Shown here in pieces: positions 56,223-59,339 of a DNA stretch of 64,000 nt (position 1 is its first letter; every line of letters begins with the position of its first letter). Made by a program: the position numbers and the translations under genes. The notes under the pieces are model-generated. The model saw only the letters and a list, made by a program, of their open reading frames with translations. It searched no databases and was not told the DNA's origin. The DNA is taken from the NCBI RefSeq assembly GCF_988243305.1, contig NZ_OZ547136.1; one strand, written 5' to 3'.

Positions 56223-56411
56223 TCATTGCCAGCATCCTTTTTGTATCGGACGTAAACGGGCCAGCATTGAAAGAATGCATATTTTATTTAATAGCTCCCG
56301 TTCGTGTTTTCTCTTGTTAATGGCATCTTCAGTAAATACAGGGTTACTGATAGTGACACCAATTTCAAAACAACCTTCAGACGTATTAACGTTTGGTAAT
56401 AACGTTTCCAT
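56223..56411 (-). CDS. dicB: cell division inhibitor DicB
   Basis: 62-aa ORF METLLPNVNTSEGCFEIGVTISNPVFTEDAINKRK... from ATG 56411 (GAGG SD upstream) inside track ORF 56223-56516; lies about 170 nt downstream of DicF as in the dicB operon. Confidence 0.75.
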   Translation of the reverse strand: METLLPNVNTSEGCFEIGVTISNPVFTEDAINKRKHERELLNKICILSMLARLRPIQKGCWQ

Positions 56412-56585
56412 TATCGCGTCCTCAACAATGAATTTTGTGATGCGGTGCCTGGTGCCTCCAGGTGACGTTAACCAGTTAACAATTAACGCCGGATACAGAG
56501 AATCCACCCATAACACTGTTTTTGGTTTTAACTGTTCCGCGTGCGCTCAGCCGCATTCACCACATCACAAAATTCACTTTAAAAA

Positions 56586-56638
56586 GGGCGGCAGAGCAGT
56601 CACGGAGTAAAACTGATACCGCCAAACGTCACCAGAAA
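56586..56638 (-). ncRNA. dicF: DicF small regulatory RNA (ftsZ-targeting)
   Basis: Reverse complement reads TTTCTGGTGACGTTTGGCGGTATCAGTTTTACTCCGTGACTGCTCTGCCGCCC followed by a T-run; matches the 53-nt DicF sequence as recalled, with its 3' terminator hairpin. Confidence 0.75.
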
Positions 56639-56977
56639 ATTGATAACAGAGGGCGTTGCAGCGGGGTTGTCACTTAAGCGTATGGTCAACCTGACAACCC
56701 GGTGTCCTCAACGGGGGAAGGAATAACCCCGCCATACTTACCGCCGCGCCATTTCGCGGATTGCCACAACCGGAAGCGCACGGTCGACGAAAATTTAACG
56801 ACAGGCTATCTATGAACCAGCTACCTCGCCGTGCGCTTTCGCGTTATGGTCTGACTTTTCAGGGAAATATCCTTTCAGTAAACTGTCAGTGCCGGATTCT
56901 TATCCGTGTCCGGCGCACGACCACACGCTGTCACGAGAGGTCTCCATTCTCAACCAGTAACCTCAATGGAGGATAAA

Positions 56978-57172
56978 ATGTCAGAGCAGGAGTTAAAACT
57001 TGGTGCATGTTATTGTGTTCTCAAGGAGCTGGTACACATGCTTCCATCTACTCAGTATCAACAGTTAGTTGGCAATTTAAATCAGCGAATCGAAGCTATG
57101 TTAAAATCTGATGGTTTTAATAACGTAGAAACGCTGATGCTAAAAAGATATCTTGATGGATTAATCAGATAA
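56978..57172 (+). CDS. hypothetical small protein (64 aa) encoded convergently within the early-left region
   Basis: ATG at 56978 preceded by a strong SD (TGGAGGATAAAATG); MSEQELKLGACYCVLKELVHMLPSTQYQQLVGNLNQRIEAMLK...; inside track ORF 56906-57172; no competing minus-strand ORF over 25 aa in this interval. Confidence 0.5.
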   Translation: MSEQELKLGACYCVLKELVHMLPSTQYQQLVGNLNQRIEAMLKSDGFNNVETLMLKRYLDGLIR

Positions 57173-57499
57173 CATTTTTTTACGGCGTTCATATTCGTTA
57201 ATATTTATGAAGCCTGTTGCCAGAAGCAGTTCGTTAATTTCATGGTTGTTTGGCTGTTTCTGGCTCTTTGAGCTGGGATCTTCCACTTCTTTTTCTGCAA
57301 ATTGTTTTGCTGTATCCTCTGTGCCATGGATATTTAAAGCTGTATCTGAAAACAGCCCAGTAAACGCATCGCGCACATTACGAGCCATATTATCAGTGTC
57401 TTTTTTTGTTACCGATTCCAATTCAAGTTCGTTCAGACGATGACGAAGTGTGTGTGCTGCAATCTCCTGGATTGAAGGAGGTAAATCTTTAAATTCCAT
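57161..57499 (-). CDS. hypothetical early-left protein (112 aa)
   Basis: Track ORF 57161-57511; start placed at second ATG 57499 (MEFKDLPPSIQEIAAHTL...) which has a GAGG SD; 3' end overlaps the convergent plus-strand ORF by 12 nt. Confidence 0.55.
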   Translation of the reverse strand: MEFKDLPPSIQEIAAHTLRHRLNELELESVTKKDTDNMARNVRDAFTGLFSDTALNIHGTEDTAKQFAEKEVEDPSSKSQKQPNNHEINELLLATGFININEYERRKKMLSD

Positions 57500-57510
57500 C
57501 GTCAACCTCA

Positions 57511-57744
57511 TCAGTCAGTGTTTCTTGCTAACCAGCGATGCGCGCCAGCTGCGGTTTTAAACGTTTTACTTTTGGTATACGTCATCGCGGTGAAGGTGCC
57601 GTCCTGGTTAGGGAACACACCGCATACCAGAGATTCGTTGTTGCCAAGATCGATAGTATCCATGCTGACCTCATTTCCCCTTAACGCCGGGGTAGCGGAA
57701 CAAAAACCTGCTGCATAGTTATTAAAGTTGAACCCTGCCGTCAT
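57511..57744 (-). CDS. hypothetical early-left small protein (possibly YdfB-like); start ambiguous (57744 or internal ATG 57663)
   Basis: Track ORF of 77 aa; both ATG 57744 and ATG 57663 (MDTIDLGNNESLVCGVFPNQDGTF...) have GAGG SD sequences upstream; first gene downstream of the OL-type operator. Confidence 0.55.
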   Translation of the reverse strand: MTAGFNFNNYAAGFCSATPALRGNEVSMDTIDLGNNESLVCGVFPNQDGTFTAMTYTKSKTFKTAAGAHRWLARNTD

Positions 57745-57846
57745 GTTCTTACGCCTCGGGCTGGCTACTTACCCCCTGACCACTGCTTGGTAACTCGAAG
57801 TATTGCCCGGCGTTCTGTGGGGCGGGGTGGGTTGGTATGTTGTTAA

Positions 57847-57860
57847 GGTAACAAGAGTTA
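57847..57860. promoter_or_regulatory. candidate left operator (OL) for the prophage repressor
   Basis: 14-bp palindrome GTAACAAGAGTTAC (GTAAC-N4-GTTAC), same motif as the two sites between the cI-like and cro-like genes. Confidence 0.55.
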
Positions 57861-57903
57861 CCTTTCGAGTCAATACAATGTTGCAAAAGGTACATTCGAG
57901 GGC

Positions 57904-57930
57904 ATAAAAAACCCGCAATGAATGCGGGTT
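57904..57930 (-). terminator. rho-independent terminator after the repressor gene
   Basis: Minus-strand hairpin ACCCGCATTCATTGCGGGT followed by a T-run immediately after the cI-like stop. Confidence 0.7.
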
Positions 57931-57935
57931 CTGAC

Positions 57936-58610
57936 TCAGTCTAAGTATTGATGTATTTGTGAAACTTTACCTTTAATGGTGTAACCACCATTAAGTTCGA
58001 TGGGTTTGTAAAGCGGATTCAGTGACAACAGATAGATGTTTGGTCCGTCAATCGCAACTTTTTTTAGTGTTACGTTTGGCGTTCCTTCCAATTGGATTAA
58101 GATTATTTTTCCCACCAGTTCTCTAATGTTACTTGAGCATGGTGTGATCAGCACGGTAGATCCGTCGGGGATGGTTGGGAGGCCGTTAGAGTTTGTCATC
58201 GCATCTCCCTCAACATGCAATAAAAAAGAGTTTTCAGCGGTTTTTGTCATGACATCAACCCAATTCTTAATACCAGGAATCTCGGTTACTGGACAACTCA
58301 TATCCCAATAACCAGCCTGTTCCCACGTTAAAACGGGCAACCGGGCGATGTTGTCACTAATGTAAGGGTACTGATTCAGACGCAGATCATCGGCTTTATC
58401 GTGACCGTCCTTTCCATAAAGAATCCATTCAGGAGATTTGGAAAGCAATTTTGACAGTAGATACAAATTCTCACCGTCAGGTTTTGAAGAGCCATTTTCC
58501 CATTTTGTTACGGATACACGAGATATGCCGATTGCTTTCGCAACCTGCTGTTGGGTTAATCCAACGTCTTTTCGACGATTCCGAATACGTTCGCTGATAG
58601 TGTTTTTCAT
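57936..58610 (-). CDS. prophage CI-like repressor (XRE HTH N-terminal domain plus S24/LexA-like autopeptidase C-terminal domain)
   Basis: Track ORF 57936-58709; start placed at ATG 58610 (MKNTISERIRNRRKDVGLTQQQVAKAIGISRVSVTKWENG...) by close resemblance to the P22 C2 N-terminus; C-terminal Ser/Lys dyad context (GDAM...KK). Confidence 0.85.
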   Translation of the reverse strand: MKNTISERIRNRRKDVGLTQQQVAKAIGISRVSVTKWENGSSKPDGENLYLLSKLLSKSPEWILYGKDGHDKADDLRLNQYPYISDNIARLPVLTWEQAGYWDMSCPVTEIPGIKNWVDVMTKTAENSFLLHVEGDAMTNSNGLPTIPDGSTVLITPCSSNIRELVGKIILIQLEGTPNVTLKKVAIDGPNIYLLSLNPLYKPIELNGGYTIKGKVSQIHQYLD

Positions 58611-58624
58611 GTAACCAATGTTAC
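58611..58624. promoter_or_regulatory. candidate right operator site (PRM-proximal)
   Basis: Palindrome GTAACCAATGTTAC immediately upstream of the repressor start. Confidence 0.55.
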
Positions 58625-58658
58625 TACCAAGTGATGTTGCTATGGTTGACATTGTTAT

Positions 58659-58672
58659 GTAACTATTGTTAC
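58659..58672. promoter_or_regulatory. candidate right operator site (PR-proximal)
   Basis: Palindrome GTAACTATTGTTAC adjacent to a TTGACA hexamer (58646-58651) upstream of the cro-like gene. Confidence 0.55.
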
Positions 58673-58701
58673 CCTTCTGCTCGAAATAACAGGAGAGTTT
58701 T

Positions 58702-58917
58702 ATGTTCAAAGATGATGTTCTGCGCTATTTCAAAAAAAAGCGACTAGTAGCTGAGGCTCTTGGAATTTCACATGTGGCTGTTGTGCGGTGGAAAGCAGTT
58801 ATTCCCAAACTTCGCGCAATGGAACTGGATGAAATTACTAACGGTGAATTGAAATACAACCCAGAACTTTACAAGAAGCAGGATAGCACCTCAAACGAAG
58901 GAAAGAATGATTCATGA
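58702..58917 (+). CDS. Cro-like/YdaS-family HTH DNA-binding protein
   Basis: 71-aa ORF with SD AGGAGAG; HTH segment LVAEALGISHVAVVRW; divergent from the repressor gene. Confidence 0.7.
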   Translation: MFKDDVLRYFKKKRLVAEALGISHVAVVRWKAVIPKLRAMELDEITNGELKYNPELYKKQDSTSNEGKNDS

Positions 58918-59339
58918 AAATCAAGCATGAACACATCCGCATGGCGATGAATGTCTGGGCGCATCCGGACGGCGAAAAAGTGCCGGCTGCGAAAATTACC
59001 AAAGCGTATTTCGAGCTGGGAATGACGTTCCCGGAACTGTATGACGACAGCCATCCGGAAGCCCTGGCCCGTAATACCCAGAAAATTTTCCGTTGGCTGG
59101 ATAAAGACACCCCTGATGCTGTTGAAAAAATGCAGGCTCTGTTACCGGCGATCGAAAAGGCGATGCCGCCTTTGCTGGTGGCCCGTATGCGCAGCCACAG
59201 TTCTGAATATTACCGTGAGATCGTCGAACGGAGGGATCGGCTGGTGAAGGATGTCGATGATTTTGTTGCGTCAGCGGTTGTTTTGTATGACCAGATGAAT
59301 CGCGGCGGCCCGGCAGGGAATGCTGTGGTGATGCACTAA
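58914..59339 (+). CDS. CII-like/YdaT-family prophage regulator
   Basis: 141-aa ORF overlapping the cro-like stop; size and position match the YdaT family that follows ydaS in Rac-type prophages. Confidence 0.55.
   Translation: MKIKHEHIRMAMNVWAHPDGEKVPAAKITKAYFELGMTFPELYDDSHPEALARNTQKIFRWLDKDTPDAVEKMQALLPAIEKAMPPLLVARMRSHSSEYYREIVERRDRLVKDVDDFVASAVVLYDQMNRGGPAGNAVVMH

What the first reader, a model, noticed from the sequence alone, without database searches (positions are those of the whole stretch)
57511..57860. First early-left gene sits behind an OL-type operator and has two plausible starts
Just downstream of the repressor terminator there is a GTAAC-N4-GTTAC palindrome (57847-57860) identical in form to the two operators at the cI/cro junction, so leftward early transcription probably starts here. 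The first ORF can start at 57744 (77 aa) or 57663 (50 aa, MDTIDLGNNESL...), each with a GAGG SD. Genes at this position in lambdoid phages are often host-takeover or superinfection-exclusion functions.
Basis: partly seen in the sequence, partly recalled or inferred. Interest (0 to 1): 0.45.

Follow-up and report, generated by a model that had tools for sequence, protein, structure and literature searches.

The report
Prophage early-left promoter, structured leader, ydfA
This is the repressor-controlled leftward early promoter of a lambda-like E. coli prophage and its first gene, an ordinary ydfA (DUF1391) homologue that starts at the downstream ATG. The 175 bases between them are a conserved, folded RNA leader that no Rfam family matches.

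Summary
GTAAC-N4-GTTAC occurs exactly three times in 64 kb, against 0.04 expected. The left copy lies between TTGACT and TACCTT, just past the repressor terminator. This is the geometry of E. coli K-12 dicBp.

In at least 12 other immunity types the same position holds a different palindrome that recurs in that prophage's own cI/cro region.

The ORF is YdfA/DUF1391, the first gene of a dicBF-type operon (DicF and dicB lie downstream). The conserved start is ATG 57663, giving 50 aa.

ATG 57744 is the start of a leader uORF. Here it happens to be fused in frame. In 20 of 53 related loci it ends before ydfA.

The unexpected part is the leader itself (57838-57664). It is conserved behind many different operators and in front of several different first genes. 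It is present in K-12 Rac and in Serratia, Prodigiosinella, Arsenophonus and Superficieibacter.

The leader holds two elements supported by covariation. One is a stem-loop with an invariant 15-nt apex. The other is a pseudoknot-like pair of helices beside the ydfA Shine-Dalgarno.

The functions of YdfA and of the leader remain unknown.

The parts
57936..58610 (-). CI-type repressor gene (HTH_3 + Peptidase_S24), 224 aa from ATG 58610. RefSeq annotates a 238-aa form of the 98%-identical copy, which would start at 58652.
   Evidence: Pfam HTH_3 4e-17 and Peptidase_S24 1e-16; phrog_4 transcriptional repressor; annotation of L001.
58611..58672 (.). OR region with two exact GTAAC-N4-GTTAC operators (58611-58624 and 58659-58672), between the repressor gene and the P22-Cro-like gene (58702-58917, + strand).
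   Evidence: Cro Pfam P22_Cro 2.9e-16.
57904..57931 (-). Intrinsic terminator of the repressor gene.
   Evidence: Fold -16 kcal/mol, z = -3.69.
57877..57896 (.). Candidate weaker second left operator (OL2), AATGTTGCAAAAGGTACATT. It has 3 mismatches to the core pattern and palindromic outer ATGT/ACAT.
   Evidence: Mismatch scan. It is kept as a conserved block among loci of the same immunity while the flanks vary. Repressor binding was not tested.
57868..57873 (-). -35 hexamer TTGACT of the leftward early promoter (PL, equivalent to dicBp).
   Evidence: Sequence. Same -35 / 6 nt / 14-bp operator layout as K-12 dicBp. Conserved among same-immunity loci.
57845..57864 (.). OL1 operator, a perfect 20-bp inverted repeat (core 57848-57861). 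It fills the promoter spacer and overlaps the -10 TACCTT (57850-57845).
   Evidence: Operator/immunity co-variation in at least 12 immunity types.
57836..57841 (-). Predicted transcription start (about 57838), 6-7 nt after the -10. This is also the point where sequence shared among prophages of different immunity begins.
   Evidence: Homology breakpoints at query 122-132; alignments. Inferred, not measured.
57780..57820 (-). Leader element I, a stem-loop. H0 is 57820-57817 with 57783-57780. H1 is 57811-57806 with 57790-57785. The invariant apical 15-mer CAAUACnnCGAGUUA is 57805-57791.
   Evidence: RNAalifold predicted it unaided. 91.7% of cells paired against 74.7 +/- 2.0 in shuffles, and 10 of 13 pairs compensatory, 0/500 shuffles for each.
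57742..57757 (-). Leader uORF initiation region: GAGG 57757-57754 and ATG 57744-57742. In this allele the uORF runs in frame into ydfA, giving the 77-aa reading.
   Evidence: Nearly invariant block in 107 distinct leaders. The uORF outcomes differ between loci.
57677..57697 (-). Leader element II. S1 is CGCU 57697-94 with GGCG 57688-85. S2 is CCCC 57692-89 with GGGG 57680-77. The topology is an H-type pseudoknot or two alternative hairpins. In the sister alleles with a separate 18-20-codon uORF (14 of 53 loci) its stop codon falls in UUAA 57684-81.
   Evidence: 94.5% of cells paired against 83.6 +/- 1.5 in shuffles, and 7 of 8 pairs compensatory, 0/500 shuffles for each, on a hand-made alignment of 24 variants.
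57511..57663 (-). ydfA homologue (DUF1391), 50 aa, with SD GAGG at 57672-57669.
   Evidence: Pfam DUF1391 99.4 bits against a cut-off of 27.3, matching residues 29-75 of the 77-aa ORF. The start Met is conserved in 82 of 82 loci. RefSeq annotates the 50-aa form.
57161..57499 (-). Second gene of the operon, 112 aa, function unknown. It takes the place of K-12 ydfB and ydfC.
   Evidence: phrog_2151 1.8e-55; no similarity to YdfB or YdfC.
56586..56637 (-). DicF small RNA.
   Evidence: Rfam RF00039, 76.7 bits against a gathering score of 48.
56223..56411 (-). dicB (62 aa).
   Evidence: Pfam DicB 125.6 bits. The stretch 56919-56165 is 96.8% identical to the K-12 Qin dicF-dicB-ydfD region.

Best explanation
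Positions 57873-57845 are the PL-type early-left promoter of a lambdoid prophage. The resident CI-type repressor would block it by binding OL1, which sits inside the promoter, and perhaps a weaker OL2 34 bp upstream. When repression is lifted, transcription would start near 57838. It would run through a 175-nt conserved, structured leader into ydfA (50 aa, start 57663), then a 112-aa gene, DicF, dicB and the recombination genes. This is a dicBF-type operon. ATG 57744 is the start of a short leader ORF, not the conserved YdfA start. In this allele a four-C run puts that ORF in frame with ydfA, so a 77-aa form may be made as a by-product. Shown here: the operator pattern, its co-variation with immunity type, family membership, start-codon conservation and the RNA covariation. 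Inferred: repressor binding, the transcription start, and which proteins are actually made.
For: Operator:
- The exact pattern occurs 3 times and only in the immunity region, against 0.04 expected.
- The layout TTGACT / 6 nt / operator matches K-12 dicBp, TTGACC / 6 nt / TTAGTCATGGCTAA. The K-12 operator Oc is bound by DicA in vivo (PMC3441716), and DicA represses dicBp 22-fold (PMC10448788).
- In at least 12 immunity types, a type-specific palindrome about 23 nt before the leader start recurs, usually twice, in that locus's own cI/cro region.

Promoter and start:
- Sequence shared across immunity types begins 6-7 nt after each putative -10.

Gene:
- DUF1391 scores 99.4 bits and covers only the 50-aa core.
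- The core Met and its GAGG are kept in all 82 loci.
- Nine upstream variants have an in-frame stop at codon -13 and no upstream start.
- K-12 lacks the extension altogether.
- RefSeq annotates 50 aa.
- Distant homologues start directly at the core or carry unrelated extensions.

uORF:
- 33 loci are fused and 20 separate, out of 53. The peptide is frameshifted between subtypes, and the SD is mutated to GATG in L003.

Operon:
- DicF and DicB are present, and the downstream stretch is 96.8% identical to Qin.
Against: The strict sigma-70 consensus scan found no promoter in 56800-59000. TACCTT matches only 3 of 6 positions of the -10 consensus. No transcription-start, footprint or expression data exist for this element. 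Only one perfect operator is present on the left, against three in lambda. In-frame fusion of the uORF is the commoner state (33 of 53), and a 3-nt deletion in many loci keeps the frame, so some selection for the 77-aa form cannot be excluded. The repressor carries GDAM in place of the catalytic GDSM, so how derepression happens is unclear.
Confidence: 0.8

Rival explanations
1. The 77-aa protein from ATG 57744 is the real, or an equally real, product in this allele. On this reading the 27-residue extension has a function.
For: The frame is open, with GAGG 9 nt upstream. 33 of 53 long-leader loci keep the fusion, a frequent 3-nt deletion preserves the frame, and one subtype restores the frame with a compensating extra T. 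Many gene callers predict 76-78 aa. The PHROG profile for the family carries 19 extra N-terminal positions.
Against: The extension is absent from K-12 YdfA/YdaF and from distant homologues. It is out of frame or stopped in 20 of 53 loci. Its middle is read in different frames in different subtypes, FNFNNYAAGFC against TLCITAQQVFS. Pfam DUF1391 does not cover it. Its codons overlap RNA helices that covary.
Confidence: 0.2
2. There is no promoter here. ydfA and the downstream genes are expressed by read-through of the repressor transcript, and the palindrome is a stray operator copy or a structural repeat.
For: No consensus promoter was found by the scan. The -10 is weak.
Against: A strong terminator lies between the repressor gene and ydfA. 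The same position holds a good -35 plus an immunity-specific operator in at least 12 unrelated immunity types. In K-12 the equivalent dicBp is a proven DicA-repressed promoter (PMC10448788). Expressing DicB/DicF together with the repressor would be toxic (PMC5069750).
Confidence: 0.05
3. The leader is only recently shared mosaic DNA with no function of its own. Its conservation reflects recombination between prophages.
For: Most E. coli copies are about 95% identical. The whole leader folds no better than shuffled sequence, z = +0.29.
Against: Copies in Serratia, Prodigiosinella, Arsenophonus and Superficieibacter have diverged, yet they keep the helices through compensatory changes and keep the 15-nt apex and the uORF start invariant. 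The leader is kept behind many different operators and in front of at least 4 different first genes.
Confidence: 0.15

Closest known systems
E. coli K-12 Qin prophage dicA-dicBp-ydfA (dicBF operon)
   Same: The repressor gene is followed on the same strand by a repressed promoter with the operator between -35 and -10. ydfA is the first gene. DicF, dicB and a ydfD-like gene lie downstream, 96.8% identical over 755 nt (PMC10448788, PMC3441716).
   Different: The operator is different (GTAAC-N4-GTTAC against TTAG-N6-CTAA). The repressor is a long S24-type protein rather than the short DicA. ydfB and ydfC are replaced by a 112-aa gene and a convergent 64-aa gene. The leader is 175 nt, with element I and the uORF, whereas the K-12 Qin leader is about 70 nt and shares only element II.
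E. coli K-12 Rac prophage racR-ydaG-ydaF
   Same: It carries the same long leader: element I, the uORF start and element II, directly after the RacR-controlled promoter. It also has a DUF1391 gene, ydaF.
   Different: In Rac the leader is followed first by ydaG (44 aa) and then by ydaF. The uORF is separate, 18 codons ending at the UAA in element II. The operators are TAGGC-N3-GCCTA.
Phage lambda PL/OL-N
   Same: The position after the repressor gene, the operator overlapping the promoter, and the leftward early operon carrying kil-like and recombination genes.
   Different: There is no N homologue and no boxA or boxB near PL or PR. There are one or two operators on the left instead of three. 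The first gene belongs to DUF1391.
Phage HK022 putL (cis-acting antitermination RNA at the 5' end of the PL transcript)
   Same: A structured RNA occupies the first ~100 nt of the PL transcript of a lambdoid phage without N. Prophages with HK022-like PL operators (L005, L084) carry this leader in the position where HK022 has putL.
   Different: There is no sequence similarity to putL or putR. The covariance model finds no hit in HK022 and no second copy downstream of PR. Activity was not tested.

Membership tests
Lambdoid PL/OL promoter-operator | Lies downstream of the repressor gene, on the same strand, after its terminator | tested here: met
   Repressor stop at 57936, terminator 57931-57904, -35 at 57873.
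Lambdoid PL/OL promoter-operator | Operator of the same sequence type as at OR, overlapping the promoter | tested here: met
   Three exact copies, against 0.04 expected. OL1 spans the spacer and the -10. The pattern changes together with immunity type.
Lambdoid PL/OL promoter-operator | Sigma-70 -35/-10 close to consensus | tested here: inconclusive
   TTGACT / 17 nt / TACCTT matches 8 of 12 positions. It fails the scan's threshold but keeps T1, A2 and T6 of the -10.
Lambdoid PL/OL promoter-operator | Repressor binding and a transcription start at the site | not testable with these tools
   Needs a footprint or EMSA, and 5' RACE.
DUF1391 / YdfA-YdaF (PF07151) | Score above the Pfam gathering cut-off over the full model | tested here: met
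   99.4 bits against 27.3, model positions 1-47 of 48.
dicBF-type operon | DicF RNA and dicB downstream on the same strand | tested here: met
   DicF 76.7 bits against 48. DicB 125.6 bits against 27.
dicBF-type operon | ydfB and ydfC between ydfA and dicF | tested here: not met
   No similarity. The window therefore holds a mosaic variant of the operon.
N/nut antitermination | N-like first gene, boxA and boxB after PL and PR | tested here: not met
   The first gene is DUF1391. No boxA-like site lies within the immunity region.
HK022 put RNA | Similarity to putL/putR, and paired copies after PL and PR | tested here: not met
   No similarity. One copy per locus and none in HK022. Function could not be tested.
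Any Rfam 15 family (for the leader) | Covariance-model match | tested here: not met
   Nothing above 16.4 bits, best E = 0.61, in 57640-57860.
AP2 / integrase-arm DNA-binding fold (for YdfA) | Significant fold or profile match | tested here: not met

The most novel reading that the evidence does not exclude
The 175-nt PL leader would be an undescribed cis-acting regulatory RNA of Rac/Qin-type lambdoid prophages that lack N. It consists of a stem-loop with an invariant 15-nt apex, a short ORF whose translation but not its peptide matters, and a pseudoknot beside the first gene's ribosome site. It would decide whether early-left transcripts, which carry toxic genes such as dicB or kil, are elongated or translated. 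Possible mechanisms are put-like modification of RNA polymerase, or Rho- or ribosome-dependent attenuation.
Probability: 0.5. Interest if true: 0.7.

Novelty: new variant of a known kind. Interest (0 to 1): 0.5.

Why it matters
The promoter, operator and ydfA gene are ordinary. They settle an annotation question (50 aa, not 77) and add one more immunity specificity to the known dicA/dicBp design. The leader is the part worth following up. It sits at the head of operons that encode cell-division inhibitors (DicB, DicF, Kil) in thousands of E. coli genomes, including the Rac prophage of K-12, so it can be tested in the standard laboratory strain. How lambdoid prophages that lack N control elongation through their early-left operon is not known. 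A conserved structured RNA placed where HK022 has putL is a concrete candidate.

Tried and rejected
- N/nut system: no boxA near PL or PR and no N homologue.
- put homology: no similarity to HK022 putL or putR, and no second copy of element I.
- Rfam: no family matches the leader. The Trp_leader hit at 57903-57996 (24.7 bits against 41) is only the terminator.
- Whole-leader thermodynamic stability: z = +0.29, uninformative. A first RNAalifold run on near-identical E. coli copies gave a weak consensus. Structure appeared only after divergent genera were added.
- The Rho-dependent terminator trac of Rac was considered as an identity for the leader, but it lies within and upstream of racR, on the PRM transcript (PMC4150792).
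- The C-rich, G-poor first 40 nt (19 C, 6 G) look rut-like, but this is only an idea.
- YdfA function: no PDB sequence match, no convincing fold match, and AP2 homology is not supported.
- Literature on DUF1391: one unrelated paper. YdfA/YdaF are described as of unknown function (PMC5069750, PMC11014345).
- The 1,146-nt transcript length given in PMC10448788 could not be reconciled with a K-12 start site, so it was not used.

Full report
**Setting.** Positions 56.2-59.4 kb of the window are the immunity region of a lambdoid E. coli prophage.
- On the minus strand lies a CI-type repressor gene with HTH_3 and Peptidase_S24 domains (57936-58610).
- On the plus strand lie a P22-Cro-like gene (58702-58917) and a YdaT/CII-like gene (58914-59339).
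- A 561-nt query spanning the finding matches 4347 of 5426 complete E. coli genomes in part.
- It matches 104 of those genomes over at least 80% of its length. In these, RefSeq annotates 'LexA family protein', 'DUF1391 family protein' and 'hypothetical protein'.

**Check of the observation.**
- It is the core of a perfect 20-bp inverted repeat, 57845-57864.
- The exact pattern occurs three times in 64 kb and only in the immunity region: 57848, 58611 and 58659. Shuffles give 0.04 +/- 0.20, and none of 100 reached three.
- The repressor gene ends in a strong intrinsic terminator (57931-57904; -16 kcal/mol, z = -3.7).
- Both start codons exist. GAGG lies 9 nt before ATG 57744 and 5 nt before ATG 57663.

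**Promoter and operator.**
- On the minus strand the sequence reads TTGACT (57873-57868), a 17-nt spacer, then TACCTT (57850-57845).
- The operator starts 6 nt after the -35 and overlaps the -10.
- The strict consensus scan does not call a promoter here, so the promoter rests on comparison.
- In K-12 Qin the proven DicA-repressed promoter dicBp has the same layout: TTGACC, 6 nt, TTAGTCATGGCTAA overlapping TAATCT. The same TTAG-N6-CTAA motif occurs in the dicA/dicC intergenic region.
- One of the K-12 sites, Oc, binds DicA in vivo (PMC3441716). Deleting dicA raises dicBp activity 22-fold (PMC10448788).
- I then took 80 related loci from IMG/VR plus annotated phages and genomes.
- In at least 12 different immunity types, a type-specific palindrome sits about 23 nt before the start of the shared sequence. 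The same palindrome form recurs, usually twice, in that locus's own cI/cro intergenic region. Examples are TACC-N4-GGTA, TAGGC-N3-GCCTA (Rac) and TCAC-N5-GTGA.
- This co-variation of left and right operators with immunity type is the strongest evidence available here that 57848-57861 is an operator.
- Among loci of the window's own immunity type, only three blocks are conserved upstream of the leader:
  - ATGTACCTnTTGyAACAT
  - TTGACT
  - GGTAACTCTTGTTACCTT
- The first block (57877-57896, three mismatches to the core) is a candidate weaker OL2.
- Sequence shared between prophages of different immunity begins 6-7 nt after each putative -10. This places the start near 57838. That position is an inference.

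**The gene and its start.**
- The ORF is a member of DUF1391, the YdfA/YdaF family. It scores 99.4 bits against a cut-off of 27.3.
- The Pfam match covers residues 29-75 only, which is the 50-aa core.
- The core methionine is present in all 82 loci examined. Its GAGG is kept in nearly all of them; two variants read GGGG.
- RefSeq annotates the 50-aa form.
- K-12 YdfA (51 aa) has no homologous extension. Homology to the window starts only 38 nt before the ATG.
- Nine distinct upstream variants have an in-frame stop 13 codons upstream and no in-frame start at all.
- Distant family members, from 222 clusters at 50% identity, start directly at the core or carry unrelated extensions.
- Gene callers give anything from 50 to 127 aa for close relatives, which reflects the variable upstream sequence.
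- I conclude that 57663 is the YdfA start.

**What ATG 57744 is.** It belongs to a conserved initiation region, GAGGCGTAAGAACATGACGGC, that is nearly invariant in 107 distinct leaders. What follows it is not conserved as protein.

| uORF outcome | Loci (of 53) |
|---|---|
| Fused in frame to ydfA (as in the window) | 33 |
| Separate, 18-20 codons, stop codon 17 nt before the next gene's ATG | 14 |
| Separate, stops after 6 codons | 6 |

- Fused or separate depends largely on whether a C-run is CCCC or CCC.
- Two subtypes read the middle of the uORF in different frames, FNFNNYAAGFC against TLCITAQQVFS.
- One locus, otherwise identical in the core, has the upstream GAGG mutated to GATG.
- The 77-aa reading in the window is therefore a fusion of a leader uORF to ydfA.
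- It may be translated, but it is not the conserved product.

**The operon.**
- Downstream on the same strand lie a 112-aa gene of unknown function (57161-57499, phrog_2151), DicF (56586-56637, 76.7 bits against 48), dicB (56223-56411), a ydfD-like gene and an 824-aa 3'-5' exonuclease gene.
- From 56919 to 56165 the window is 96.8% identical to K-12 Qin.
- ydfB and ydfC are absent.
- The operon is thus a mosaic version of the dicBF operon. Its products DicF and DicB inhibit cell division and, for DicB, exclude phages (PMC5069750; bioRxiv 10.1101/708461).

**The leader.**
- The 175 nt between the predicted start and ydfA are conserved behind many different operators.
- They are also conserved in front of different first genes:
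  - ydfA in the window
  - a ydaG-like gene followed by ydaF in Rac-type phages
  - other genes in phage Evi and in a phage deposited as an Actinobacillus phage
- K-12 Rac has the leader between racR and ydaG, with no feature annotated there.
- A scan of one genome per species found the central block in Superficieibacter, Serratia, Prodigiosinella (twice) and Arsenophonus.
- With these divergent copies, RNAalifold predicted unaided a stem-loop made of an outer helix H0 and an inner helix H1. These enclose an invariant 15-nt region, CAAUACnnCGAGUUA.
- For this stem-loop, 91.7% of cells pair against 74.7 +/- 2.0 in shuffles. Ten of 13 pairs show compensatory changes, and no shuffle of 500 reached either value. 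Shifted registers pair at only 20-43%.
- G-U pairs on the transcript strand outnumber A-C cells, which fits an RNA of the PL transcript.
- A second element lies 4 nt before the ydfA Shine-Dalgarno. S1 (CGCU/GGCG) and S2 (CCCC/GGGG) interleave as in an H-type pseudoknot.
- In 24 distinct variants, 94.5% of cells pair against 83.6 +/- 1.5. Seven of eight pairs have compensatory changes, for example GCCG/CGGC, GCCA/UGGC, CACC/GGUG and CGGC/GCCG.
- That alignment was made by hand and so leans toward the structure.
- Whether S1 and S2 form together or alternately is not known.
- K-12 Qin's short leader keeps element II but lacks element I.
- No Rfam 15 family matches the leader.
- A covariance model of element I finds exactly one copy per locus. 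It finds none after PR, none in HK022 and none in K-12 Qin.
- There is no similarity to HK022 putL or putR. Prophages with HK022-like operators nevertheless carry this leader where HK022 has putL.
- The leader as a whole is not unusually stable.
- Its function is unknown. Candidates are control of elongation or termination, or uORF-dependent control of translation of the first gene.

**YdfA function.**
- Nothing is known experimentally (PMC5069750, PMC10448788, PMC11014345).
- The AlphaFold model has four strands followed by a C-terminal helix, with mean pLDDT 81.
- One new lead: in long proteins the DUF1391 domain is fused to DarA_N (5 of 10 examined) or to ArdC_N plus DUF3560 (2 of 10).
- These are domains of the polyvalent proteins that phages and plasmids deliver against host restriction (PMC5512222).
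- This suggests, but does not show, a role early in infection related to DNA or to host defence.

**Verdict.** The finding is correct and largely ordinary. It is a new immunity variant of the known dicA-dicBp-ydfA arrangement, and the start-codon question is resolved in favour of 57663. The conserved structured leader with its uORF is new as far as Rfam 15 and the papers I searched show, and it deserves experimental follow-up.

Noticed in passing
window 57936-58610 (-), residue 137 of the repressor (codon at about 58202-58200): The S24 peptidase motif reads VEGDAM instead of VEGDSM, so the catalytic serine is replaced by alanine. This is seen in the window and in 5 related loci. A 95%-identical repressor with the same operators (L071) has GDSM. 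By analogy with LexA S119A, this allele should not self-cleave, so the prophage may not be SOS-inducible.
   Followed up: partly
window 56978-57172 (+): A 64-aa gene of unknown function (phrog_4987, 3e-49) lies convergent to, and inside, the leftward early operon. It overlaps the 3' end of the 112-aa gene by 12 nt.
   Followed up: partly
proteins P0172, P0183, P0190, P0192, P0200 (DarA_N + DUF1391); P0194, P0238 (ArdC_N + DUF1391 + DUF3560): The DUF1391 domain occurs inside long polyvalent-type proteins, next to domains linked to anti-restriction. This is the only functional hint for the YdfA family.
   Followed up: partly
L086 (NC_000913.3 1419459-1419617, minus strand), between racR and ydaG of K-12 Rac: E. 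coli K-12 MG1655 carries the same structured leader, with an 18-codon uORF (MTAGFKFCSAAVSSATRR). Nothing is annotated in that stretch of the record.
   Followed up: partly
window 57840-57800 (-): The first 40 nt of the predicted transcript contain 19 C and 6 G. The divergent genera also have a C/A-rich, G-poor 5' end. It resembles a Rho loading site, but this was not tested.
   Followed up: no
window 56379-56588 (-): A sub-threshold Rfam match to STnc100 (38.7 bits against 47) lies in the untranslated stretch between DicF and dicB.
   Followed up: no
window 58610-58652: The repressor start is ambiguous. RefSeq annotates a 238-aa form of the near-identical copy, which would put the operator 58611-58624 inside the coding sequence. 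The ATG at 58610 abuts that operator, which would fit a nearly leaderless repressor mRNA as in lambda.
   Followed up: no
L083 (PP818812.1, deposited as Actinobacillus phage vB_Apl-pPE4): This phage carries the enterobacterial-type leader at 75% identity, together with DicA-, YdaT-, Kil- and RecE-like genes. The stated host looks odd for such a gene set.
   Followed up: no
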